This document shows positions 53,720 to 64,000 of a stretch of 64,000 nt of DNA, piece by piece. The position numbers and the translations under genes were made by a program. The notes below the pieces were generated by a model. It ran no database searches. It was not told the DNA's origin and was given only the letters and a program-made list of their open reading frames with translations. Position 1 is the stretch's first letter. Each line of letters starts with the position of its first letter. This DNA is from Cyclobacteriaceae bacterium (lineage in GTDB: Bacteria > Bacteroidota > Bacteroidia > Cytophagales > Cyclobacteriaceae), in contig CBDCEM010000002.1 in NCBI GenBank assembly GCA_965215825.1, forward strand, positions 1,614,504-1,678,503, written 5' to 3'.

Positions 53720-54601
53720 ATGGCGTTCAGATACTTACTAACCACTTCCCTTTTTATCCTCGGATCTTCATTGCTGGCCCAGTCAGATCAAAAATATCTT
53801 GGTCAAAAACCACCGGGAGTGATCCCAGAGAAATTTGCTCCGGATCTCATCTCCATGCCTTTTGAATATGAGTTTGGATCTACTTTTTCCAGAGACGGAA
53901 AAGAGTTTTTCTATGGCGTAAATGTGGCAGGAAAGGCGGAAACCCGATATTCCCAATGGGTTGACGGGAAGTGGACCAAACCTGAAGTCATTCTCTCACA
54001 CGAAACCTTTGGTTATAATGATCCCATGCTTTCAAGAGATGAGATGAAACTATACTTTATTTCCGATCAGGCCATCACCGGTGATTTGCAAAAAGACTAT
54101 GACATTTGGTACGTCGATCGTTCAGGAGGTTCATGGTCCGAACCCATCAACGCCGGCCCGATGATAAATACGGAAAGCAATGAGTATTACATTTCTTTTA
54201 CTGCTTCTGGCACCATGTATTTTGCTTCGAATACAGATGCGCCGCCCGGGAAAGGGAATAATTTTGATATCTATAAATCCGCTTTTGAAGGCGGTCAATT
54301 TCAAAAGGCTGTGAAGTTGCCGTTCAACTCGGAATACTATGAGGCGGATGTTTTCGTCGCTCCGGACGAGTCTTATGTCATTTTCGCCGCCGAAAAACCC
54401 GAGGGTCTGGGACGAGGAGATCTATACATCAGTTTTCAGGTAAACGGCAATTGGAGCACTCCCCAAAACATGGGTGAACCCATTAACGATTTAGGGCACC
54501 AACTCTGCCCCTTCGTAACCGGTGATGGGAAGTATTTTTTCTTCACCAGCAACCAGGATATTTATTGGGTAGGCAGTGAAATCCTGGAGCAGTATCGGTA
54601 A
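53720..54601 (+). CDS. Secreted WD40-like/PD40 (TolB-like) beta-propeller repeat protein
   Basis: Signal peptide plus repeated …Y.D..P..S.DGK..YF.S……G..DIY… units. Confidence 0.55.
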   Translation: MAFRYLLTTSLFILGSSLLAQSDQKYLGQKPPGVIPEKFAPDLISMPFEYEFGSTFSRDGKEFFYGVNVAGKAETRYSQWVDGKWTKPEVILSHETFGYNDPMLSRDEMKLYFISDQAITGDLQKDYDIWYVDRSGGSWSEPINAGPMINTESNEYYISFTASGTMYFASNTDAPPGKGNNFDIYKSAFEGGQFQKAVKLPFNSEYYEADVFVAPDESYVIFAAEKPEGLGRGDLYISFQVNGNWSTPQNMGEPINDLGHQLCPFVTGDGKYFFFTSNQDIYWVGSEILEQYR

Positions 54602-54683
54602 ACAACTGTCTTCTTGCTTGTCAAAGTGTCAGTTTTTCGATTTGGATTAAAGGTGCTTCCTCATTTACTAGCCGTTCTAACAT

Positions 54684-55755
54684 AGCACCTCAGTGCTGAG
54701 TGGGAGTGATGAAGAAGAGCAGGTAGCTATTCGCTATTTACTTTTCGCTTGAAATTAAAATCACAAGCATCAGCCATCAAGTTGATGAAACCTGAAATTC
54801 TAAGCAGTTAATGAAGCACGTCAATAGGAAGGTATGAAATAGCACCTCGGTGCTGAGTACAAGTACCAAGAAGGGCAGAAAAGCTATTCGCTATTTACTT
54901 TTCGCTTGAAATTAAAATCACAAGCATCAGCTATCAAATTGATGAAACCTGAAATTCTAAGCAGTTAATGAAGCACGTCAATAGGAAGGTATGAAATAGC
55001 ACCTCGGTGCTGAGTACAAGTACCAAGAAGGGCAGAAAAGCTATTCGCTATTTACTTTTCGCTTGAAATTAAAATCACAAGCATCAGCTATCAAATTGAT
55101 GAAACCTGAAATTCTAAGCAGTTAATGAAGCACGTCAATAGGAAGGTATGAAATAGCACCTCGGTGCTGAGTACAAGTACCAAGAAGGGCAGAAAGCTAC
55201 TCGCTATTTACTTTTCGCTTGAAATTAAAATCACAAGCATCAGCCATCAAGTTGATGAAACCTGAAATTCTAAGCAGTTAATGAAGCACGTCAATAGGAA
55301 GGTATGAAATAGCACCTCGGTGCTGAGTACAAGTACCAAGAAGGGCAGAAAAGCTATTCGCTATTTACTTTTCGCTTGAAATTAAAATCACAAGCATCAG
55401 CTATCAAATTGATGAAACCTGAAATTCTAAGCAGTTAATGAAGCACGTCAATAGGAAGGTATGAAATAGCACCTCGGTGCTGAGTACAAGTACCAAGAAG
55501 GGCAGAAAAGCTATTCGCTATTTACTTTTCGCTTGAAATTAAAATCACAAGCATCAGCTATCAAATTGATGAAACCTGAAATTCTAAGCAGTTAATGAAG
55601 CACGTCAATAGGAAGGTATGAAATAGCACCTCGGTGCTGAGTACAAGTACCAAGAAGGGCAGAAAGCTATTCGCTATTTACTTTTCGCTTGAAAGTAAAA
55701 TCACAAGCATCAGCTATCAAATTGATGAAACCTGAAATTCTAAGCAGTTAATGAA
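54684..55755. repeat. Tandem array of about 6.8 copies of a 157-bp non-coding unit
   Basis: Unit starts at 54684, 54841, 54998, 55155, 55311, 55468 and 55625. Copies 2-7 are more than 98% identical and copy 1 is diverged. Each unit contains the AGCACC-TCG-GTGCT hairpin. Confidence 0.9.
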
Positions 55756-56830
55756 AGCTACTATAACTCTCCGACCCCTTCGCCAGCTTTCCTCGATAGA
55801 TCCAGTGAATAATGATGGTATAACCGGTGATCAGGAAAATGCCAATGATCCACCACCCAATGGCAATATTCAATCCATATGCTGACGCGGAGGCTGAGTA
55901 GACTGTGATGTCAGGATTAACCTGATTGGTACTTGGGAGCAACGCGGGAAATAGACCTATAACCGCTGCGGTAAACATGCCGGCAATGAACAAACTGCTA
56001 CAGATAAAGGCGGCAAATGGCTTGTCCTTCTTCAGGAATTGGGTGTTGGCGATCAATGCGATCAAACTTATCAATGGAATGATAAGTAAGGCAAGGTTTT
56101 CTGTCAGTCGAGTAGTAATTCTTGGTTGAATGTCCGGCATCATGTGGAAAGAAACGATCATCATCGCAAGAATTGCTACCGAAAGAACAACATTCACTTT
56201 TTTGATCCGATCGGACAATTCTTTGTCCTCAATTTTTAGGAGCACCCAGTTCCCACCATGTATGGTAAATGTCAAAGTAGCAATCAATCCGACCAGTAGC
56301 GTGAATATATCAATAACACCCACATCCTCGCCGGGAAAGAAGGTAGTCCACAAAGGCGCAAAGAAATAGTGCGCTTCGTAAGCAGAAATGCCTTCTGAAA
56401 CACCGCCAAGGTTGACTCCTCTTAGGATGTTCCCAAAGGCAATTCCGAAGATCAGAGCGAGTAACAAACTGGAAAAGCCAAACAATCTATCCCAAAAAGA
56501 TTTCCACATGGGATGATCGATTTGATTCCTCAATTCCAGGCTGATGGCCCGACCCATGATCAGCCAAAGTACCATCATGAGCGGCAAATAGAAACCGCTA
56601 AAGAACGACGCATACAAGGTAGGAAATGCCATGAACAGCAAGCCGCCTCCGGCTACCAGCCATACTTCATTACCGTCCCAGAAAGGTCCGATGCTACGTC
56701 GAATCAAGATGCCTTCTTTTTCATCTCTGGCCACAAACAACGTCAAAATTCCAGCACCAAAATCAAAGCCATCCAGGATGGCATACATGATAAACATGAA
56801 GGTGAGAATACTAAGCCAGGTGATCTCCAT
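55748..56830 (-). CDS. cydB: Cytochrome bd ubiquinol oxidase subunit II
   Basis: MEITWLSILTFMFIMYAILDGFDFGAGIL is the canonical CydB N-terminus. This is the ATG at 56830 rather than the longer ORF-track start. Confidence 0.85.
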   Translation of the reverse strand: MEITWLSILTFMFIMYAILDGFDFGAGILTLFVARDEKEGILIRRSIGPFWDGNEVWLVAGGGLLFMAFPTLYASFFSGFYLPLMMVLWLIMGRAISLELRNQIDHPMWKSFWDRLFGFSSLLLALIFGIAFGNILRGVNLGGVSEGISAYEAHYFFAPLWTTFFPGEDVGVIDIFTLLVGLIATLTFTIHGGNWVLLKIEDKELSDRIKKVNVVLSVAILAMMIVSFHMMPDIQPRITTRLTENLALLIIPLISLIALIANTQFLKKDKPFAAFICSSLFIAGMFTAAVIGLFPALLPSTNQVNPDITVYSASASAYGLNIAIGWWIIGIFLITGYTIIIHWIYRGKLAKGSESYSSFH

Positions 56831-58181
56831 CGTCTTGAATTTTAGGTTGTGTAACAGGTGTGGGACCCAGGTTGATAATTCGTCCGACCAATAAAATGAA
56901 TAGCAGGCCCAGCAAAAAGTAAAGCCCAATAAACCCAAGGAAAGTAAATAAGGTATTACCAGCCGATACGGTAGGAGAAGCCCCCTCCGCAGTGCGCAGC
57001 AATTTGTAAACCAGGTAAGGTTGTCGTCCCAGTTCGGCCGTCATCCATCCGGCGGTATTAGCGATATAAGGGAGCGGTAGAAAGGCCATGATGAGCCAAA
57101 GTAACCATCGCATTTGAAATAGCTTCTTGCGATAAAGGAAGAGAGCTGCCGCTGACATCAGGCCAATGAATAAGGTGCCCAACCCCACCATGACGTGAAA
57201 GGAATAATAAAGCAGTGGAACATTCGTAGGCAATTCTTCTTCCGGATAGTCATTCATGCCTTTCACTTCTGCCTGGAAGCGCGTGTAAGTGATCAGACTC
57301 AGGACATAGGGGATGTGGATCGGATTGTCGATGCGTTTCATTTCCATGTTTGGTTGTCCGATCAGGACGATCCCGGCACCCTCTTCACTTTCAAAGAGTC
57401 CCTCCATGGCCGCAAGTGTCGATGGTTGAAACTCAGCTACATTTTTAGCTTGTTGGTCACCGGTGGGAAAGACAACAAGAAACGAAGCAATAAGCCCGCT
57501 GATCACACCGATTTTTATGAACATTTTGCCAAATTCTTCGTGCCTTTTCATCAACAAGTAAAAGGCACCCACTCCAGCAACCACAAACGAAGCAGTCACC
57601 AATGAGGCAATCATGTTGTGGGCATATTCCCAGTACAGCCATGGATTTTTGAAAAGGGCTGAAAAGCTGGTGAGCATGATCTTACCACTTTCATCAATGA
57701 TATAGCCGACCGGGTTTTGCATCCATGCATGTGTCGCAATGATAAAGAACCCACTCAACCACGAGCCGAGAAACACACAGCAACAAGCCGTCCAATGTAA
57801 CCATTGTGGCACTTTCTTTTCTCCGAAAAGCATCAGACCAATGAAGGCACTTTCCAGAAAGAAGGAAAACATGCCTTCCATGGCAAGCGTTTGGCCCACC
57901 ACACTGCCGGTTAATTCCGAGAACTTGGCCCAGTTAGTCCCAAACTGAAACTCCATGGGAATCCCGGTTACCACCCCCATGACGAAGTTGATGGCAAATA
58001 TTTTGATCCAAAACCTACTTGCCTGGTGGTAGCGCTCATCGTCCCTTTTCATGGCAATGGTCTTCATGATGAGGATCAACAAAGACAATCCCATCGTGAG
58101 TTGTGGGAAGAGGTAATGAAACGTGATCGTGAAGGCAAATTGCAAGCGATCGTACAAGATCATGTCTTCCATAGACAGCAA
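56811..58181 (-). CDS. cydA: Cytochrome bd ubiquinol oxidase subunit I
   Basis: Conserved N-terminus (…RLQFAFTITFHYLFPQLTMG…), Q-loop, nine TM helices. Confidence 0.85.
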   Translation of the reverse strand: MLSMEDMILYDRLQFAFTITFHYLFPQLTMGLSLLILIMKTIAMKRDDERYHQASRFWIKIFAINFVMGVVTGIPMEFQFGTNWAKFSELTGSVVGQTLAMEGMFSFFLESAFIGLMLFGEKKVPQWLHWTACCCVFLGSWLSGFFIIATHAWMQNPVGYIIDESGKIMLTSFSALFKNPWLYWEYAHNMIASLVTASFVVAGVGAFYLLMKRHEEFGKMFIKIGVISGLIASFLVVFPTGDQQAKNVAEFQPSTLAAMEGLFESEEGAGIVLIGQPNMEMKRIDNPIHIPYVLSLITYTRFQAEVKGMNDYPEEELPTNVPLLYYSFHVMVGLGTLFIGLMSAAALFLYRKKLFQMRWLLWLIMAFLPLPYIANTAGWMTAELGRQPYLVYKLLRTAEGASPTVSAGNTLFTFLGFIGLYFLLGLLFILLVGRIINLGPTPVTQPKIQDDGDHLA

Positions 58182-58487
58182 GTTTTGTAGTGAGCGATGT
58201 TGCTATTGGCAAAGGTCGCTCAGGATGTTGAATCGTTACGGAATTCTACGAAAAATAAGCGCGGTGGTCTAAGATTTATGGATGATTTTTTGAGGTGATG
58301 AATGGGGTTGGGAGTGTGAGGTTGGAGAAAGTTTTTTTTGAAAGCAGAAAATGAAGTGCTAATATTGAGTTTACAAAACCATTGAGCAACTTGAGGGGAC
58401 ATGTGACAGCTAATTGATCCTTTCCTTTTGTGTATCTTATTTGAATCCAGGTGGTTTTGTGACATGATAACTGAATAAAAACACAAA

Positions 58488-61400
58488 ATGATGCATCGAC
58501 TTCTCAAAACGACGATTTGCCTACTATTTGTAGGTCTAAGCATAAAAAGTGTAGCTCAAGATAATCAAGACGTCTTAGGCCTTGATGATCCTGATGTGCC
58601 TGAAGTTGTACCTCCATCACCAACTGCAGCTGCTTTGGGTCAGTACGGCGAAATTCCTGTCGATCTCTACCACGGATTACCAAATATTTCTGTGCCACTC
58701 TACGAGATTGTTGTCGATGACGTAAAAGTTCCGATCAGCCTGTCGTTTCATGCATCAGGCCATAAAGTGGGTACTATAGCAAGTTGGGTTGGGCTAGGTT
58801 GGAGTTTAAATGCTGGTGGAGTAGTCACCAGATCTATGAGAGGTCGCCCTGATCAGGATGACAATTATGGATATTTCAACAATATGGCCGAAATACAGGA
58901 CTGGGAAGACAATGACCTGTTGTATCATTTATTACCACCTCACGATGCTACATCGATTTCCATGAAGACCTATATGCAGTTGATGAATGACAACAACTGG
59001 GATTCACAAGCTGACGTGTTTTTATACAATTTTCCAGGAGGTACAGGGAAATTCATGTTTAAACCTGATCGCAGCATCATTCAATTCCCTTATCAGGACA
59101 TGAGAATCGGCCTCGCCGAATCTGGATCTTATGAGAATGGATTTCGAATAAGAACACCAGATGGAATGGTTGCTTCATTCATCCACGCAGAATGGAATCA
59201 GGTCGATTATGAACATAATAACAATGACCCGGACCCTATATACAATACAGCCTGGTATCTGGGTAATTACGCCTCAAGTATTTCTGATAAAAGTGTTCAG
59301 TTCTTTTATGATGAAGGTGTTCTGCTTCCAGGAGACAACATTCCCAGAGACCGGGTTTTTGAGAGGCTTGTAGAATTTAGCTCCGATTATTCTGCAGACA
59401 ATAGCTCTCTTGTCAATTACACTTCAAATTATACACGCCACCTTGATACAATTCAATGGGAGTTAGGGGGAATTAAATTTTATAGTTCTGCCACCAGGGG
59501 TGACAAAGTAGGTGCGAAAAAGTTGGACTCACTGGCGATCTTCAATGCGTTTGGTGAAAGAGAAAAAAGTTTTCATTTCGAATATTTTCCGTTCATCTCA
59601 GGGGCTCGCGAACTGGATCAATACCTGATATTAAGATCTGTTACAGAGGTTGGGAAAAAAGGTGGTACCAATCCTCCTCACGTTTTTGAGTACTACGACC
59701 TTTTGAGATTACCTCCGAGAGATTCGAAAGACGTGGATCATTATGGTTTTTACAATGAAAAGAATAATACAAGACTAACGCCTCCTTTACGTAATTTGGC
59801 TTATGGCGCTCCCATTGCCGGAGGCAACCGGTCCGTAGGCCACAATAAGGCAAGAGTTGGTATGCTGCAAAAGTTACATTATCCAACGGGCGGTTTCTCA
59901 GAATTCTTCTACGAGTCAAATGAATATTATTCACTGTCACCGGGTAATAGTGCAAATACAGAAATCGCAGGTACTGTGGCTCTGGCCGAATCTTGCCTGG
60001 CGGACGGAGAACTTTACTATCAGGAAGATGGTAGTGTTGTTATTGGTTTGACTTGTCAGGAAGATACTGAGTCGATACCGATAACGATAGGAGATGATGC
60101 GTTTGATATCGAATTGATCCTCTCCTATAAAAGTGATCCTACAACTACAATTGAGCATGATGGATCCAATGATTTCTTCCTGGTACAATTATTTCAGATT
60201 GAGGAAGCCACTGAAACACTGATTAACTCCTATACGGGATTGATGAATGATCAAACCATCACGGGGCTGCTCTCCGTGGGTAATACTTATAAAGTAAGAG
60301 CATACACCAACAACCCGGGGACACAGTTGAAAGCAGAGATTAAATACAAATTCATAGATGTGCCCCCTGGAGGGAATGTCAATAATTATATTGGGCCAGG
60401 GATCAGAATTGCCCGTGTAGATCATTACAATGAATCAGGAAGAGCTAAGTCTAAAGTTTATGAGTACAATTTGAAAGAGGATCCAACCAAGTCCAGTGGG
60501 ACTTTATTTGCCCGGCATCCGGAGTATTCTACACAAATTAATAAACTTGAATTGTATAATCCTCCAGGTAATTATGTAGATCCAGGTCCCGTTATTAGCG
60601 TGGTTAAATATAGAACGACCGTCGCTCACCCTAGCGGTGTACTAGGAGCCCTGGAAAGTGATTTACTCGCTTATTCGGAAGTAGTTGAAAGAGAGGTCGG
60701 AAATGGACATACTCGTTATTTCTATTCCAATGATATGGATACCGATTATAGTGGACTTGACCCTTTTAGTGCTGGAAATGATCATTATGCTCCTTCCAAT
60801 CTGTTTGAAAAACAAAGGACAACAGGCTACTGGAAGCGAGGTAAAGTGGAACAAGTTGAAGTGGTTAATGAAACAGGAGAACTTAAAACTCAAACTGAAA
60901 ATTTTTATAGTCATCTTGAGACTGACTCATCAAAGACTTTCCATTATCAAATGGCGCTAGACCGTTCAGGCGCTGATTATTATCCCTACGATAATGGGTA
61001 TCATCATGCCTTTGAAGAACAAGTCACTGGATGGTCAAGACTTGATTCGACATATCAGAAAGTAATTGAAGGTGGTATAGAATCATTGACAAAGACCATC
61101 TACCAATATGAGAATAGCACTCCTGTTCAACTAATTGCCCCCAAAGTAACGCAAGCTATTTTAGATGGTGTTAACGATATTAAAGTCGAAACGGACTACT
61201 TAAATGATAGAATAAATCATGTGATTTTACCTCCCGAAACCACCAGACTCTATAGTGCCACAGGAGAATTGTTGAAAGAACATCGATATCAGTACGTCAG
61301 TCATCGCCCTTCGACTATTGAGACTTATTTTGGCAATAATGACGATCCTGATTACACTATCAATCTTTCGCACTACAATGGCACAAGGCCTTCATACGTA

Positions 61401-61871
61401 CAAGACAATTCAGGTGTGGATATGGTTTATCTATGGGGCTATGCTAATACGCTTCCGGTGGCTCAGATTACCAATATGTCTTATTCTGAGGTAGAGACGC
61501 TCTTAGGTGCCAATTTGACAAATATCCAAAATTCCGACGATGAAAACTTTATAAAATCTCAACTGGCCTCTCTGCGATCGGTATTGTCAAATACACAATC
61601 CATGATTACTTATATCTACGATATAAGTGGATTGATTACTGAAATGATCGACATAAACGGTCAGTCTTCATATTACACCTATGATGAATTTGATCGCCTT
61701 TTATATGTAAAAGATTTTGAGGGGAATTATCTACAATACTACGAATACAACCTGGGACTAAGTGATTTTGAATCTGGATCACAGGAAGGATCTGGATCAT
61801 CAGGTTCTGGAGGTGGTGAGAATGACGAGGATAATCCAAATTTCCCACAAGAGACAGGCGGAGGCAACTAA
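58488..61871 (+). CDS. Secreted SpvB/TcdB-N-terminal-domain protein with C-terminal YD/RHS-type repeats and a Gly/Ser-rich tail
   Basis: Signal peptide. An N-terminal block (…AALGQYGEIPVDLYHGLPNISVPLYEI……GLGWSLNAGG…) resembles the SpvB/Tc-toxin TcB N-domain. The C-terminus (YTYDEFDRLLYVKDFEGNYLQYYEY) is a YD repeat. No RHS core or toxin tip is visible. Confidence 0.6.
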   Translation: MMHRLLKTTICLLFVGLSIKSVAQDNQDVLGLDDPDVPEVVPPSPTAAALGQYGEIPVDLYHGLPNISVPLYEIVVDDVKVPISLSFHASGHKVGTIASWVGLGWSLNAGGVVTRSMRGRPDQDDNYGYFNNMAEIQDWEDNDLLYHLLPPHDATSISMKTYMQLMNDNNWDSQADVFLYNFPGGTGKFMFKPDRSIIQFPYQDMRIGLAESGSYENGFRIRTPDGMVASFIHAEWNQVDYEHNNNDPDPIYNTAWYLGNYASSISDKSVQFFYDEGVLLPGDNIPRDRVFERLVEFSSDYSADNSSLVNYTSNYTRHLDTIQWELGGIKFYSSATRGDKVGAKKLDSLAIFNAFGEREKSFHFEYFPFISGARELDQYLILRSVTEVGKKGGTNPPHVFEYYDLLRLPPRDSKDVDHYGFYNEKNNTRLTPPLRNLAYGAPIAGGNRSVGHNKARVGMLQKLHYPTGGFSEFFYESNEYYSLSPGNSANTEIAGTVALAESCLADGELYYQEDGSVVIGLTCQEDTESIPITIGDDAFDIELILSYKSDPTTTIEHDGSNDFFLVQLFQIEEATETLINSYTGLMNDQTITGLLSVGNTYKVRAYTNNPGTQLKAEIKYKFIDVPPGGNVNNYIGPGIRIARVDHYNESGRAKSKVYEYNLKEDPTKSSGTLFARHPEYSTQINKLELYNPPGNYVDPGPVISVVKYRTTVAHPSGVLGALESDLLAYSEVVEREVGNGHTRYFYSNDMDTDYSGLDPFSAGNDHYAPSNLFEKQRTTGYWKRGKVEQVEVVNETGELKTQTENFYSHLETDSSKTFHYQMALDRSGADYYPYDNGYHHAFEEQVTGWSRLDSTYQKVIEGGIESLTKTIYQYENSTPVQLIAPKVTQAILDGVNDIKVETDYLNDRINHVILPPETTRLYSATGELLKEHRYQYVSHRPSTIETYFGNNDDPDYTINLSHYNGTRPSYVQDNSGVDMVYLWGYANTLPVAQITNMSYSEVETLLGANLTNIQNSDDENFIKSQLASLRSVLSNTQSMITYIYDISGLITEMIDINGQSSYYTYDEFDRLLYVKDFEGNYLQYYEYNLGLSDFESGSQEGSGSSGSGGGENDEDNPNFPQETGGGN

Positions 61872-61896: not shown

Positions 61897-64000
61897 ATGA
61901 AGAATCTAAAAGGACTTTTTCTGGTCATTCTATTTTCAGTTTCATTGCTCAATGAGGCTTTTGCTCAAATTCCCCCACCTACCGGAGGCGGGGGTGGAGG
62001 TACAGTTTATTACCTTGATTCTGATGGGGATGGTTATGGGGACACTTTCACCGCTGGTGTAACGACTCAAACTACCGGGTATTCTGTCACCAATAATGAC
62101 GATTGCGATGATTCGGACATAGATATCAATCCGGATACTCGCTGGTACCTTGATGACGATGACGATGGTTATGGAACTAATTCTACTTCAGTCGTACAGT
62201 GTTTTCAACCTACTGGATATGTCTTAAACAATACGGATTGTAATGACAGTGATGGAGCCGTACATGTGAATCAGACCTGGTATCGAGATACGGACGGAGA
62301 TGGATACTATGGTACAAGTCAAACCGCTTGCTCAAGTCCGGGTACTCATTGGTCAACAAGTTCGGGGAGTGGCACGGATTGCAATGATAACGATGCTGCC
62401 GTCCATGTTAATCAGACCTGGTATCAGGATGCAGATGGAGATGGATATTATGGTACTAGCCAGACGGCCTGTTCCAGCCCTGGCTCCAATTGGTCAACAA
62501 GTTCGGGGAGCGGCACAGATTGTAATGATGCTGATGCTGCTGTCCATGTTAATCAGACCTGGTATCAGGATGCAGACGGAGATGGATATTATGGTACTAG
62601 CCAGACGGCCTGTTCCAGTCCTGGCTCCAATTGGTCAACAAGTTCAGGGAGCGGCACCGACTGTAACGATGCTGATGCTGCTGTTCATGTTAATCAAACA
62701 TGGTATAAGGATTCTGATGGAGATGGCTACTATGGAGACACTCAAACATCTTGCTCGAGTCCCGGATCCAACTGGTCAACAAGTTCTGGTAGTGGTTCCG
62801 ATTGTGATGACACCAGTACTAGTTTAACGACTACTTGTACTTTTTCTTCGGGAATCGCCGGAGATGACAAGGTGGCAAAATCGCTCACATATACTTATAC
62901 AGCTAACACTTCTGTAACCAATGGTTCGTGGAGTCTAAGTGGAGGTGGAACCATTCAAAGTCAGAGTTCGTCCAGTGTCAGTATAAATTGGACGTCTTCC
63001 AGCGGGACCTATACACTACAATACGGTTTTAACATTGCTGATAATGCACCCGGATCAAACCCAGGGGACCTGAGGTTTTTAAGTATGGGGAGTATGCAAG
63101 TGACGATTTACAACATCAACACACCAACAATTACGGTCACGGAAGGTTGTAATCAAAGCACTATAACTCATAATGGAAGTCAAAGTAGTGTGACCTTCTA
63201 TTGGCGATCGCCTGGATCCAGCGCTTACAACGTGAGCACAGTTACAAGAACTGTTACAGCGGAGGGTACTTATTATATAAGAGGATACCACAGCGCGGGT
63301 GTTTGGGGTCCTATTAGAACAGCCACGGTCACCCACAATGACCCACCTACCTGGTATGAAGATTTTGATGGAGATGGTTATTACGGTGACACGAGGGTAC
63401 AATGTTCCAGTCCCGGGGCAAACTGGTCAACAAGTGCGGGTAGTGGTGTTGATTGCAATGATCAGGACGAGGACCAGTTTACTTCAGCCCATTGTAATCC
63501 CCAGACAATGGCTCCTCTCGGATCGAACAAGTATTTGGAAAGAGGTGCCGCTCATACATTTACATGGTTAGACCCATCGAATGGGTCTACCAATTATAAA
63601 ATATGGATTGGTGGAGAACCGATGAATAATGGTAATTGGGTGACCGGAAATAGTTTTGCCTGGACGCCAAATTCAACCTATTCCAATATCAGAATCCGGG
63701 TAGAATCACAAGACGGCAACACGGTATTCCAAAGTGACGCTTTCGACGTAGTACCGCCTATCGCTGCCTCAAGCGACAAATCAAAATACTATCCTTCTCA
63801 AACTATTAATGCCTCTTGGACGGGTGGTAAGTCAAACGAGACCTATACAATAGAGTTGATAAAAGGATCAACGGTGATCTCGACCAAAACGTCATCGGGA
63901 TCCTCTACCACTTTTGCACTTGGTACCAATCCTTCTTTAGGGACTAATTATAAAGTCCGGGTACGACAAACCACGTCAAACCGTTTGAGTGGCTCGGGTT
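61897..64000 (+). CDS. Secreted protein with at least six MopE-like putative metal-binding repeats (D.DGDGYYG…CSSPG.NWSTSSGSG.DCND.D), partial at the window end
   Basis: Open frame from the ATG at 61897 to the window edge. I read it codon by codon and found no stop. Signal peptide MKNLKGLFLVILFSVSLLNEAFAQ. Nearly identical 40-aa modules between 62280 and 62800. Confidence 0.6.
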   Translation, partial: MKNLKGLFLVILFSVSLLNEAFAQIPPPTGGGGGGTVYYLDSDGDGYGDTFTAGVTTQTTGYSVTNNDDCDDSDIDINPDTRWYLDDDDDGYGTNSTSVVQCFQPTGYVLNNTDCNDSDGAVHVNQTWYRDTDGDGYYGTSQTACSSPGTHWSTSSGSGTDCNDNDAAVHVNQTWYQDADGDGYYGTSQTACSSPGSNWSTSSGSGTDCNDADAAVHVNQTWYQDADGDGYYGTSQTACSSPGSNWSTSSGSGTDCNDADAAVHVNQTWYKDSDGDGYYGDTQTSCSSPGSNWSTSSGSGSDCDDTSTSLTTTCTFSSGIAGDDKVAKSLTYTYTANTSVTNGSWSLSGGGTIQSQSSSSVSINWTSSSGTYTLQYGFNIADNAPGSNPGDLRFLSMGSMQVTIYNINTPTITVTEGCNQSTITHNGSQSSVTFYWRSPGSSAYNVSTVTRTVTAEGTYYIRGYHSAGVWGPIRTATVTHNDPPTWYEDFDGDGYYGDTRVQCSSPGANWSTSAGSGVDCNDQDEDQFTSAHCNPQTMAPLGSNKYLERGAAHTFTWLDPSNGSTNYKIWIGGEPMNNGNWVTGNSFAWTPNSTYSNIRIRVESQDGNTVFQSDAFDVVPPIAASSDKSKYYPSQTINASWTGGKSNETYTIELIKGSTVISTKTSSGSSTTFALGTNPSLGTNYKVRVRQTTSNRLSGSG

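What the first reader, a model, noticed from the sequence alone, without database searches (positions are those of the whole stretch)
54684..55755. Non-coding 157-bp tandem array of about 6.8 copies between convergent genes
Near-identical 157-bp units repeat head-to-tail. Copy 1 is diverged, and one copy has a 1-nt deletion giving 156 bp. The array fills the whole 1.15-kb gap between the PD40 gene (+) and cydB (-). The unit is not a multiple of 3 and no frame stays open, so it is not a protein repeat. It is not a CRISPR either, because there are no unique spacers. Each unit carries an AGCACC-TCG-GTGCT hairpin and an A/T-rich segment. Large-unit satellites like this are rare in bacterial chromosomes. 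It could be a multi-copy sRNA array, a protein-binding/partition-like array or a recombination hotspot.
Basis: seen in the sequence. Interest (0 to 1): 0.55.

Follow-up and report, generated by a model that had tools for sequence, protein, structure and literature searches.

The report
Lineage-specific 157-bp intergenic minisatellite
The 157-bp repeat is real, but it looks like an ordinary bacterial minisatellite: the short spacer between two convergent genes was copied head-to-tail about seven times in this one lineage, and no test pointed to an RNA gene, a protein-binding array or a mobile element.

Summary
A non-coding tandem array lies at 54682-55755: period 157 bp, 6.9 copies, 97% identity. 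It sits between a PD40 gene (+) and cydB (-) in a Cyclobacteriaceae-like (Bacteroidota) genome.

Five syntenic relatives have no array here. In four of them the same gap is only 15-149 bp, and the fifth has a gene inserted there. The 149-bp gap of the closest relative is homologous, as a single copy, to the left edge of the array. So the unit is the ancestral 3'-3' spacer, from a small hairpin to the cydB stop codon, amplified in place.

The leftmost copy is old and diverged. The interior copies are homogenised, and four of them are identical. A 470-bp, three-unit period also shows.

No functional reading got support:
- No Rfam match and no stable fold for the unit.
- The sigma-70-like promoter on the minus strand turns up in 6.5% of random units and is the wrong type for Bacteroidota.
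- The palindromes are at chance level.
- There are no DnaA boxes, gene remnants, peptide families or dispersed copies.

The closest precedent is the Wolbachia VNTR-141/VNTR-105 loci: periods of 141 and 105 bp, a hairpin per period, about 7 copies, and a single period in relatives.

Verdict: a new member of a known kind, of low interest. A promoter-bearing sRNA array remains possible at about 10%.

The parts
53720..54601 (+). PD40 (WD40-like beta-propeller) gene, left flank. It converges on the array.
   Evidence: Pfam PD40, E 2.7e-17. Orthologues at 72-79% identity keep the same neighbourhood.
54602..54681 (.). Unique 80-bp spacer between the PD40 stop codon and the array
   Evidence: Not part of the TRF array. 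Its 3' part, read on into copy 1, aligns with the single-copy gap of relative L001 (local score 23, 0 of 1000 shuffles reach it; alignment A1).
54682..55755 (.). The whole tandem array: 157-bp period, 6.9 copies, 38% G+C against 43% for the window
   Evidence: No Rfam family matches. The longest ORF is 33 aa.
54682..54838 (.). Copy 1, the edge copy, 157 bp. Its first 44 nt are diverged and the rest is near-identical to the interior copies. Its hairpin at 54684-54697 has one mismatch (AGCACCTCAGTGCT).
54839..54995 (.). Copy 2, 157 bp, identical to copies 3, 5 and 6. Palindrome at 54841-54854. Second palindrome TATCAAATTGATG at 54932-54944.
54996..55152 (.). Copy 3, 157 bp, identical to copy 2. 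Palindrome at 54998-55011.
55153..55308 (.). Copy 4, 156 bp. It has the 1-nt deletion in the A-run and one T>C change, and it shares the C/G variants with copy 1 (CATCAAGTTGATG at 55245-55257). Palindrome at 55155-55168.
55309..55465 (.). Copy 5, 157 bp, identical to copy 2. Palindrome at 55311-55324.
55466..55622 (.). Copy 6, 157 bp, identical to copy 2. Palindrome at 55468-55481.
55623..55755 (.). Copy 7, truncated to 133 bp. It has the same 1-nt deletion as copy 4 and one T>G change. It lacks the 23-nt junction piece and ends in the cydB stop codon. Palindrome at 55625-55638.
54988..55024 (+). Representative two-tier hairpin across a unit junction, read on the + strand: outer stem GGUAU/GUACC, inner stem UAGCAC-CUCG-GUGCUG. 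It recurs at every interior junction.
   Evidence: The + strand folds at -13.2 kcal/mol, z -3.2 (1 of 200 shuffles does as well). The - strand folds at -9.5, z -1.9. L001 has the same architecture with a different outer stem, GGUCCU/AGGACU. No run of U follows on either strand.
54954..54981 (-). Representative sigma-70-like site, TTGACG-16-TAGAAT, on the minus strand. The other five are at 54797-54824, 55111-55138, 55267-55294, 55424-55451 and 55581-55608. The -35 hexamer lies in the 23-nt junction piece, so the truncated copy 7 has only the -10 hexamer.
   Evidence: A match of 10 of 12 or better occurs in 6.5% of composition-matched random units. Probably not functional.
55748..56830 (-). cydB (cytochrome bd subunit II), right flank. 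The likely true start is the ATG at 56830, giving 360 aa as in the relatives. Its last 8 nt belong to the repeat.
   Evidence: Pfam Cyt_bd_oxida_II, E 4.8e-80. Translation ends ...YSSFH*. Relatives have 360-aa cydB.
56811..58172 (-). cydA (cytochrome bd subunit I), upstream of cydB in the same operon. The start is probably ATG GAA GAC at 58172, giving 453 aa as in the relatives.
   Evidence: Pfam Cyt_bd_oxida_I, E 5.1e-151. Alignment of the upstream regions.

Best explanation
This is a lineage-specific intergenic minisatellite (a VNTR-type locus). It formed when the short 3'-3' spacer between PD40 and cydB was duplicated in tandem.

The unit is the ancestral spacer segment that runs from a small conserved hairpin to the cydB stop codon (about 133 bp), plus a 23-nt junction piece.

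Inferred history:
1. An old first duplication, whose edge copy has since diverged.
2. Expansion and homogenisation of the interior copies by unequal homologous recombination or replication slippage, possibly helped by the hairpin.
3. At least one step that copied a three-unit (470-bp) block.

The array most likely has no dedicated function. Its probable effects are incidental. It is a roughly 1-kb recombination-prone spacer whose copy number can vary, and it places seven small stem-loops between two convergent transcription units.

What is shown: the array, its absence in relatives, its homology to the single-copy spacer, the pattern of divergence between copies, and the negative results for function. 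What is inferred: the mechanism of expansion and the near-neutrality.
For: 1. The array is real and highly regular.
2. Five syntenic relatives (PD40 72-79% identical) keep the same gene order. Their PD40-cydB gaps are 149, 80, 15 and 16 bp, and one relative has a deacetylase gene there. None has an array.
3. The 149-bp gap of L001 is homologous, in the same position and orientation, to the window's spacer plus copy 1: nhmmer E 0.038 as the best hit outside the array and local alignment score 23, reached by 0 of 1000 shuffles. A1 shows the shared hairpin core and the CTATTC..ACTT.TCGCT block.
4. The last copy ends in the cydB stop codon and cydB is intact, ending ...SSFH* as in L002. So the amplification used local DNA and broke no gene.
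5. There is an edge effect. Copy 1 is diverged only in its outer 44 nt, four interior copies are identical, and the 470-bp period scores best. This is what unequal exchange and concerted evolution produce.
6. This spacer is the least conserved of six intergenic regions compared with L001: z 8.7 against 11-70.
7. All tests for function were negative:
- no Rfam hit;
- unit folds at z -0.9 and -0.6;
- promoter-like match and palindromes at chance level;
- no DnaA boxes;
- no gene remnants;
- no family for the small ORFs;
- no outlier antisense target among the 39 gene starts of the window.
8. The unit was not found elsewhere: not in the window, in the representative genomes, metagenome contigs or viral contigs, or in plasmid and phage records.
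9. There is a direct precedent. Wolbachia VNTR-141 is intergenic, has a 141-bp period with a hairpin in each, 7.3 copies in wMel, periods 99% identical, and a single period in related strains. Its authors attribute it to slippage plus concerted evolution (PMC3287509).
Against: - The diverged edge copy implies that at least two copies have persisted for a long time. That could hint at selection.
- The 19-nt hairpin core is better conserved (15-18 of 19) than its flanks (27-63%) across L001, copy 1 and the interior copies. So at least that element may be functional.
- Each full unit does carry a 10-of-12 sigma-70-like site.
- 157 bp is close to 15 helical turns, which would put the palindromes on one face of the DNA.
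- Copy-number variation, the defining behaviour of a VNTR, could not be tested. Neither could transcription.
- The rest of the source genome could not be searched.
Confidence: 0.62

Rival explanations
1. Tandem array of small-RNA genes on the minus strand, like NsiR1. Each full unit would have its own promoter (TTGACG-16-TAGAAT) and make an RNA of about 115 nt ending at the AGCAC-CGAG-GUGCU hairpin. The first copy after cydB would be made as the cydAB 3'UTR. The -35 box would have arisen at the duplication junction.
For: Six identical promoter-like sites sit on the minus strand, one per full unit, with none on the plus strand. On the minus strand the hairpin is followed by AUUUCAU. The unit starts at the cydB stop codon, so it is 3'UTR DNA. 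[quoted passage not shown]
Against: - The six sites are copies of one event, and a match this good occurs in 6.5% of random units.
- The main sigma factor of Bacteroidota recognises TAnnTTTG at -7, not TTGACA/TATAAT (PMC9723704). The best Bacteroidota-type match in the unit is 8 of 10, which 89% of random units reach.
- The terminator scan finds nothing in the array.
- The unit fold is z -0.9.
- There is no Rfam hit.
- No target stands out in the window.
- The element is missing or unalignable in four of five relatives.
- The G-U pairs in the hairpin favour the plus strand.
Confidence: 0.1
2. A selected stack of stem-loops on the plus strand. The conserved two-tier hairpin would be the 3'-end structure of the PD40 mRNA (a terminator or stabiliser). 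Its seven-fold repetition would be kept because it stops PD40 read-through from running antisense into cydB.
For: The plus-strand hairpin is the only locally significant structure: -13.2 kcal/mol, z -3.2. Its core is conserved in L001 and in both diverged paralogues. The differences (U-G in the L001 inner stem, G-U pairs in the outer stems, and one A-U to C-G double change in the outer stem) keep pairing on the plus strand but give C-A mismatches on the minus strand. I read this directly from A1 and.
Against: No U-tract follows the hairpin. Relatives manage with gaps of 15-16 bp and no such hairpin. There are only three sequences, so the covariation is anecdotal. This spacer is conserved less than the other intergenic regions. 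One hairpin would do the job, so the model does not explain seven.
Confidence: 0.1
3. Protein-binding array. A dimeric DNA-binding protein would recognise the 14-bp palindrome AGCACC-TC-GGTGCT and/or ATCAA-N-TTGAT in each unit. With a 157-bp spacing (about 15 helical turns) the sites would face the same side, as in centromere-like or iteron arrays.
For: Seven palindrome copies occur, and none elsewhere in the window even with 2 mismatches allowed. The second palindrome keeps its symmetry in the variant copies, where only the centre and one flanking base change. The arithmetic is 157 / 10.5 = 14.95 turns.
Against: A palindrome with 6-bp arms occurs in 26% of random units, and the count of 5-bp-arm palindromes in 21%. 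The seven copies are one event. There are no partition or replication genes next to the array. The neighbourhood is a conserved chromosomal block. There is no match to plasmids or phages. In L001 the palindrome is less symmetrical (AGTACC-TC-AGTGCT). There are no DnaA boxes.
Confidence: 0.06
4. Assembly artefact. The true genome has one or a few units, and the assembler inflated the array.
For: The source appears to be a metagenome-assembled genome (closest records are MAGs). I could not inspect any reads.
Against: The copies are not all identical. There are a diverged edge copy, shared and private substitutions, and two copies with a 1-nt deletion arranged in a three-unit pattern. Artificial inflation would not produce this. 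The contig is reported as 2.09 Mb, which suggests long reads.
Confidence: 0.05

Closest known systems
Wolbachia intergenic VNTR-141 and VNTR-105 loci (Riegler et al. 2012, PMC3287509)
   Same: Both are intergenic, non-coding and head-to-tail, with a long period (141 and 105 bp against 157 bp here). Each period has one or two short hairpins. wMel has about 7.3 copies of VNTR-141. Periods are 98-99% identical to each other. Related strains carry a single period. The authors explain them by slipped-strand mispairing plus concerted evolution.
   Different: There is no sequence similarity, and the phylum differs (Bacteroidota against Alphaproteobacteria). Copy-number polymorphism is documented for Wolbachia and untested here. 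The local origin from a gene's 3' flank, stop codon included, can be traced here.
Mycobacterial interspersed repetitive units (MIRU-VNTR; Supply et al. 1997, cited from my own knowledge)
   Same: Tandem repeats of tens of bp up to about 100 bp lie in intergenic regions of operons, and the repeat ends overlap the stop or start codons of flanking genes. Here too the repeat overlaps the cydB stop codon.
   Different: MIRUs are a dispersed family found at about 40 loci per genome. This unit was found at one locus only, in the sequence I could search. MIRU units are shorter.
NsiR1 tandem sRNA array of heterocystous cyanobacteria (Ionescu et al. 2010, as described in PMC6596454)
   Same: Direct repeats in tandem in an intergenic region, and a promoter-like site can be read in each unit.
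   Different: [quoted passage not shown] Here the promoter match is at chance level and of the wrong type for the phylum, there is no terminator, and the element is not conserved in relatives.
Plasmid centromere arrays such as sopC of the F plasmid (12 x 43-bp units, each with an inverted repeat; cited from my own knowledge)
   Same: Tandem units that each carry a short inverted repeat.
   Different: There are no partition genes, the setting is a conserved chromosomal block, the unit is far longer, and the palindromes are not statistically notable.

Membership tests
Bacterial intergenic minisatellite / VNTR | Head-to-tail direct repeats of a unit longer than about 10 bp, with high identity between units | tested here: met
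   Period 157, 6.9 copies, 97% identity. Four copies are identical.
Bacterial intergenic minisatellite / VNTR | Non-coding, lying between genes | tested here: met
   The longest ORF is 33 aa. The ORFs match no protein family. There are no gene remnants. The flanks are PD40 and cydB.
Bacterial intergenic minisatellite / VNTR | Single-copy or absent state at the orthologous locus in relatives, which indicates local expansion | tested here: met
   L001 has one homologous copy in a 149-bp gap. The other relatives have gaps of 80, 15 and 16 bp or an inserted gene.
Bacterial intergenic minisatellite / VNTR | Copy number varies between strains or within populations | not testable with these tools
   No second genome of this species and no reads are available. 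Exact look-ups of the window's own proteins returned no contig.
NsiR1-like tandem sRNA gene array | A functional promoter in each repeat | tested here: inconclusive
   TTGACG-16-TAGAAT occurs in six units, but 6.5% of random units match as well. The Bacteroidota-type match is at random level.
NsiR1-like tandem sRNA gene array | A terminator in each repeat | tested here: not met
   The terminator scan finds no site in the array. The 5-bp hairpin lacks a U-tract.
NsiR1-like tandem sRNA gene array | The RNA is conserved in related genomes | tested here: not met
   Only L001 keeps partial homology, as a single copy. L002, L003, L024 and L026 do not.
NsiR1-like tandem sRNA gene array | Discrete unit-length transcripts | not testable with these tools
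   No expression data are available.
CRISPR array | Short repeats separated by unique spacers | tested here: not met
   The whole 157-bp unit repeats and no unique spacers exist.
REP / BIME / MITE-type dispersed element | Many dispersed copies in the genome | tested here: inconclusive
   No copy lies outside the array in the 64-kb window, and none was found in public genome, metagenome, viral, plasmid or phage collections. The rest of the source genome could not be searched.
REP / BIME / MITE-type dispersed element | Foreign insertion rather than local sequence | tested here: not met
   The unit is homologous to the orthologous spacer of L001 and includes the cydB stop codon.
Partition-centromere or iteron array | Adjacent partition or replication genes, or a plasmid or mobile-element setting | tested here: not met
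   The neighbours are PD40, cydAB, PqiA, TetR and an RND efflux system, in a block syntenic across relatives. There is no match to plasmids or phages.
Replication origin (oriC) | A cluster of DnaA boxes | tested here: not met
   No TTATCCACA-like box (1 mismatch allowed) lies in the array, and the count for the whole window is at chance: 19 against 18.3 expected.
Any Rfam RNA family | Score at or above the family's gathering threshold | tested here: not met
   Only a tRNA elsewhere in the window passes. The best hits in the array are wcaG at 19 bits against 42 and RAGATH-8 at 15 against 87.

The most novel reading that the evidence does not exclude
The array is a young family of sRNA genes born from the cydB 3'UTR. 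Tandem duplication would have created a -35 box at each junction, next to a -10-like hexamer that was already there. Six units would then each make a minus-strand RNA of about 115 nt, and the copy nearest cydB would be made by read-through of cydAB. This would be a traceable case of new sRNA genes arising by amplification of a 3'UTR, in a phylum with few known sRNAs.
Probability: 0.1. Interest if true: 0.55.

Novelty: new member of a known kind. Interest (0 to 1): 0.2.

Why it matters
As it stands it matters little. It is one more long-period intergenic minisatellite.

Its practical value would be as a strain-typing marker for this Cyclobacteriaceae lineage, and as a warning that short-read assemblies will collapse or break at this locus.

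Its modest scientific value is that the origin can be traced. The single-copy ancestral spacer survives in a relative, and the array shows both an old diverged edge copy and a freshly homogenised interior. That makes it a tidy example of how such arrays arise and evolve in bacteria.

It would become more interesting only if the units turn out to be transcribed from their own promoters.

Tried and rejected
- **Rfam.** A scan at gathering thresholds and a permissive scan of the array gave only chance-level hits.
- **Folding.** Whole units on both strands gave insignificant z-scores. Only the junction hairpin stands out locally.
- **Dispersed copies in the window and related loci.** Pattern searches, blastn with 7-nt words and nhmmer found none. 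The best outside hit was the orthologous L001 gap.
- **The unit in public collections.** Exact 23- and 28-mers found nothing in the representative genomes, metagenome contigs or viral contigs. blastn against plasmids and phages found nothing. The degenerate 18-mer hairpin core gave 3 viral hits, fewer than my rough estimate of the chance number, and I dropped them.
- **Retrieving the source genome.** Exact-protein look-ups found no record. The cluster look-up gave no accession.
- **oriC idea.** It was prompted by the change in gene orientation and skew near 53-58 kb. I rejected it: there are no DnaA boxes and the region is absent in relatives.
- **Decayed gene.** I asked whether the array is a remnant of the deacetylase gene that sits here in L024, or of PD40 or cydAB. 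tblastn found nothing.
- **Small-peptide idea** (cydX-like or other): the 30-, 33- and 20-aa ORFs have no Pfam or NCBIfam match.
- **sRNA target search.** Tested against the 39 gene starts of the window. The best duplex energies equal those of shuffled units.
- **Promoter type used by this organism.** My count of TAnnTTTG showed no clear enrichment in intergenic DNA, so this was uninformative. The argument from phylum-level promoter type rests on the literature only.
Full report
**Observation.** Tandem Repeats Finder reports one array at 54682-55755 with period 157, 6.9 copies, 97% matches and score 2013. The same array scores 2048 at period 470, which is three units. The units start at 54682, 54839, 54996, 55153, 55309, 55466 and 55623.

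- Copies 2, 3, 5 and 6 are identical.
- Copy 4 is 156 bp. It has lost one A from an A-run, carries one T>C change, and shares two variants (C and G in CATCAAGTTGATG) with copy 1.
- Copy 7 is cut to 133 bp, has the same 1-nt deletion and one private T>G change.
- Copy 1 differs at about 15 positions in its first 44 nt, but at only 2 positions in the other 113 nt.

The array is 38% G+C against 43% for the window. No ORF exceeds 33 aa.

**Setting.** The left neighbour is a PD40 beta-propeller gene (53720-54601, +). The right neighbours are cydB and cydA on the minus strand. By comparison with relatives, cydB runs 55748-56830 and cydA 56811-58172. The two transcription units converge on the array.

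An 80-bp unique spacer (54602-54681) separates the PD40 stop codon from copy 1. At the other end, the last 8 bp of the array (TTAATGAA) are the cydB stop codon, its His codon and part of its Phe codon. cydB is intact and ends ...YSSFH*.

The best matches of the PD40 protein are from Cytophagales and Cyclobacteriaceae MAGs. So the organism is a member of Bacteroidota.

**Comparison with relatives.** I fetched the orthologous locus from five relatives whose PD40 proteins are 72-79% identical. Gene order is the same in all: M14 peptidase, RND efflux system, TetR, PqiA, a small ORF, PD40, then cydB and cydA convergent.

| Relative | PD40-cydB gap |
|---|---|
| L001 | 149 bp |
| L002 | 80 bp |
| L003 | 15 bp |
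| L026 | 16 bp |
| L024 | holds a polysaccharide deacetylase gene |

None has an array. TRF on all 270 kb of fetched loci found no tandem repeat with a period of 30 bp or more, apart from one 48-bp repeat of 2.2 copies. The 1146-bp gap in the window is therefore a novelty of this lineage.

**Origin of the unit.** A profile built from the units has its best hit outside the array at L001 10941-11000. That is inside the orthologous gap and in the same orientation (E 0.038). A local alignment of the L001 gap against the window's spacer plus copy 1 scores 23, and 0 of 1000 shuffles reach that.

The three-way alignment A1 shows two shared blocks: the hairpin core A.AG.ACCTC.GTGCT.AGT, and CTATTC..ACTT.TCGCT. 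Both sequences then run on to the cydB stop codon.

So the unit is the ancestral 3'-3' spacer, from the hairpin to the cydB stop (133 bp, the length of the truncated last copy), plus a 23-nt piece, GCACGTCAATAGGAAGGTATGAA, that joins successive units. I could not show where those 23 nt came from. They may be a diverged copy of the sequence just left of the first hairpin, but that alignment is not significant.

The array contains no remnant of PD40, cydA, cydB or the L024 deacetylase.

**History read from the copies.** The outer 44 nt of copy 1 and the spacer to its left are only about 30-65% identical to the matching parts of the interior copies. The rest of copy 1 is 98% identical.

Such a sharp break is what one expects when the interior copies are kept alike by unequal exchange or gene conversion and the outermost flank cannot take part. 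It also implies that the first duplication is old and the homogenisation recent. The 470-bp period, with the shared deletion in copies 4 and 7, points to at least one step that copied three units together. These steps are inferred.

**Tests for function: RNA.** Rfam at gathering thresholds finds only a tRNA elsewhere in the window. A permissive scan of the array gives wcaG at 19 bits (threshold 42) and RAGATH-8 at 15 bits (threshold 86.7), which is noise.

A whole unit folds no better than shuffled sequence on either strand, at z -0.86 and -0.55.

The one locally significant structure is a two-tier hairpin across each unit junction on the plus strand. Its outer stem is GGUAU/GUACC and its inner stem UAGCAC-CUCG-GUGCUG. 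It folds at -13.2 kcal/mol, z -3.2. The minus strand gives -9.5, z -1.9.

L001 has the same two-tier shape with a different outer stem, GGUCCU/AGGACU. Reading A1 by eye, the changes between L001, copy 1 and the interior copies (several G-U pairs and one A-U to C-G double change) keep pairing on the plus strand and would give C-A mismatches on the minus strand.

That makes the plus strand, the 3' end of the PD40 transcript, the more likely place for any RNA role of the hairpin. With three sequences this is only an indication. No U-tract follows the hairpin on either strand, and the terminator scan finds nothing in the array.

**Tests for function: promoters.** The scan finds TTGACG-16-TAGAAT on the minus strand of each of the six full units and nothing on the plus strand. 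The -35 hexamer lies in the 23-nt junction piece, so the truncated copy next to cydB has only the -10 hexamer.

These six sites are copies of a single event. In 2000 random units of the same dinucleotide make-up, 6.5% contain a match at least as good.

In Bacteroidota, transcription-start mapping shows that the main sigma factor uses a TAnnTTTG box at -7 (PMC9723704; see also the papers listed). The unit's best match to TTTG-N17-23-TAnnTTTG is 8 of 10, which 89% of random units reach.

My own count of TAnnTTTG in the window did not show clear enrichment upstream of genes. So I did not establish here which promoter type this organism uses, and that part of the argument rests on the literature.

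A duplex-energy scan of unit RNAs from both strands against the 39 gene starts of the window gave no target better than shuffled units do.

**Tests for function: DNA.**
- The 14-bp palindrome AGCACC-TC-GGTGCT occurs only in the seven units. The second palindrome, (C)ATCAA-N-TTGAT(G), occurs in the seven units and at one unrelated site.
- Palindromes of this size are expected in such a unit: P 0.26 for 6-bp arms and P 0.21 for the count of 5-bp arms.
- There are no DnaA boxes in the array, and the count for the window is at chance. This, with the absence of the region in relatives, removes the origin-of-replication idea that the change in gene orientation and skew had suggested.
- The unit has no match in plasmid or phage records. 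Exact 23- and 28-mers have no match in the representative genomes, metagenome contigs or viral contigs.
- The small ORFs match no Pfam or NCBIfam family.

**Calibration.** Is the conserved hairpin core meaningful? I aligned five other intergenic regions of the window with L001. All are better conserved (z 11-70) than the PD40-cydB spacer (z 8.7). One of them, the PqiA-PD40 region, contains a small ORF in the relatives, so it is not purely intergenic. The spacer is thus among the least constrained non-coding DNA in the neighbourhood. This fits a 3'-3' gap without promoters and gives no reason to assume a special element.

**Best explanation.** This is a lineage-specific intergenic minisatellite, made by tandem amplification of the local 3'-3' spacer and kept uniform by unequal recombination or slippage. 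It probably has no dedicated function (confidence 0.62).

Its likely effects are incidental. It is a roughly 1-kb spacer with seven small stem-loops between convergent genes, and its copy number can probably change.

Rivals:
- minus-strand sRNA gene array, 0.10;
- selected plus-strand stack of hairpins that insulates cydB from PD40 read-through, 0.10;
- protein-binding array, 0.06;
- assembly artefact, 0.05. The ordered variants among the copies argue against this one.

[quoted passage not shown] They have periods of 141 and 105 bp, each with one or two 23-bp hairpins. wMel has 7.3 copies of VNTR-141, periods are 98-99% identical, and related strains have a single period. The authors explain them by slipped-strand mispairing helped by the hairpins, plus concerted evolution (PMC3287509). 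The present array matches this description feature by feature, except that copy-number polymorphism could not be tested.

MIRU loci of mycobacteria, cited from my own knowledge, share the overlap of repeat ends with stop codons but form a dispersed family.

NsiR1 shows that tandem repeats can encode sRNAs (PMC6596454). But the features that define that case are not met, inconclusive or untestable here.

**Verdict.** This is a new member of a known kind, and I score its interest at 0.2.

Noticed in passing
window 62233-62786, inside a long open frame from about 61951 to the window end at 64000 (+): A second tandem repeat: period 141 bp (47 aa), 3.9 copies, 84% identity. It is coding. The frame starting at 61951 stays open to the end of the window and repeats a Cys/Asp-rich motif (DCND.DAAVHVNQTWYQDADGDGYYGTSQTACSSPGSNW). 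The ORF listing misses the ORF because it runs off the window. The 175-aa ORF listed at 62300-62827 is in the wrong frame and is spurious.
   Followed up: partly
window about 58173-58260 (-), just upstream of cydA. Same region in L001, L002, L003 and L024.: The roughly 85 nt before the cydA start codon are strongly conserved in all five genomes, far more than the sequence further upstream. They contain a hairpin or palindrome, UGAGCGA-cc-UUUGC-(variable 5-nt loop)-GCAAA-a-UCGCUCA. The loop varies and one pair shows an A-U to U-A double change. This could be a structured leader or an operator for the cytochrome bd operon. No Rfam family matches it.
   Followed up: partly
window 56811-58181 and 55748-56938 (-): The longest ORFs overstate both cyd genes. 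Comparison with relatives puts the cydA start at the ATG at 58172 (453 aa) and the cydB start at the ATG at 56830 (360 aa). The two genes then overlap by 20 nt, as in the relatives.
   Followed up: yes
L024 4940-5821, L002 13685-14230 and L025 820-1905: The neighbourhood varies around the cyd operon in relatives. L024 has a polysaccharide deacetylase gene between PD40 and cydB. L002 has an IS200-like Y1 transposase gene (weak Pfam hit) upstream of cydA. L025 has a Fic-domain gene next to PqiA.
   Followed up: no
window 58488-61871 (+): A 1127-aa protein with no Pfam match. It has a signal-peptide-like N-terminus and a Gly/Ser-rich tail, and it is followed directly by the Cys/Asp-rich repeat protein. 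The relatives have different genes at this position (MacB/FtsX and Sortilin-Vps10/BNR proteins).
   Followed up: no
window 54651-54661 and 54684-54697: The unique spacer left of the array contains GGTGCTTCC. This can pair with the AGCACC arm of the copy-1 hairpin, and the predicted fold of the PD40 3' region uses that alternative pairing. It may be a relic of an older hairpin arm or a coincidence.
   Followed up: no
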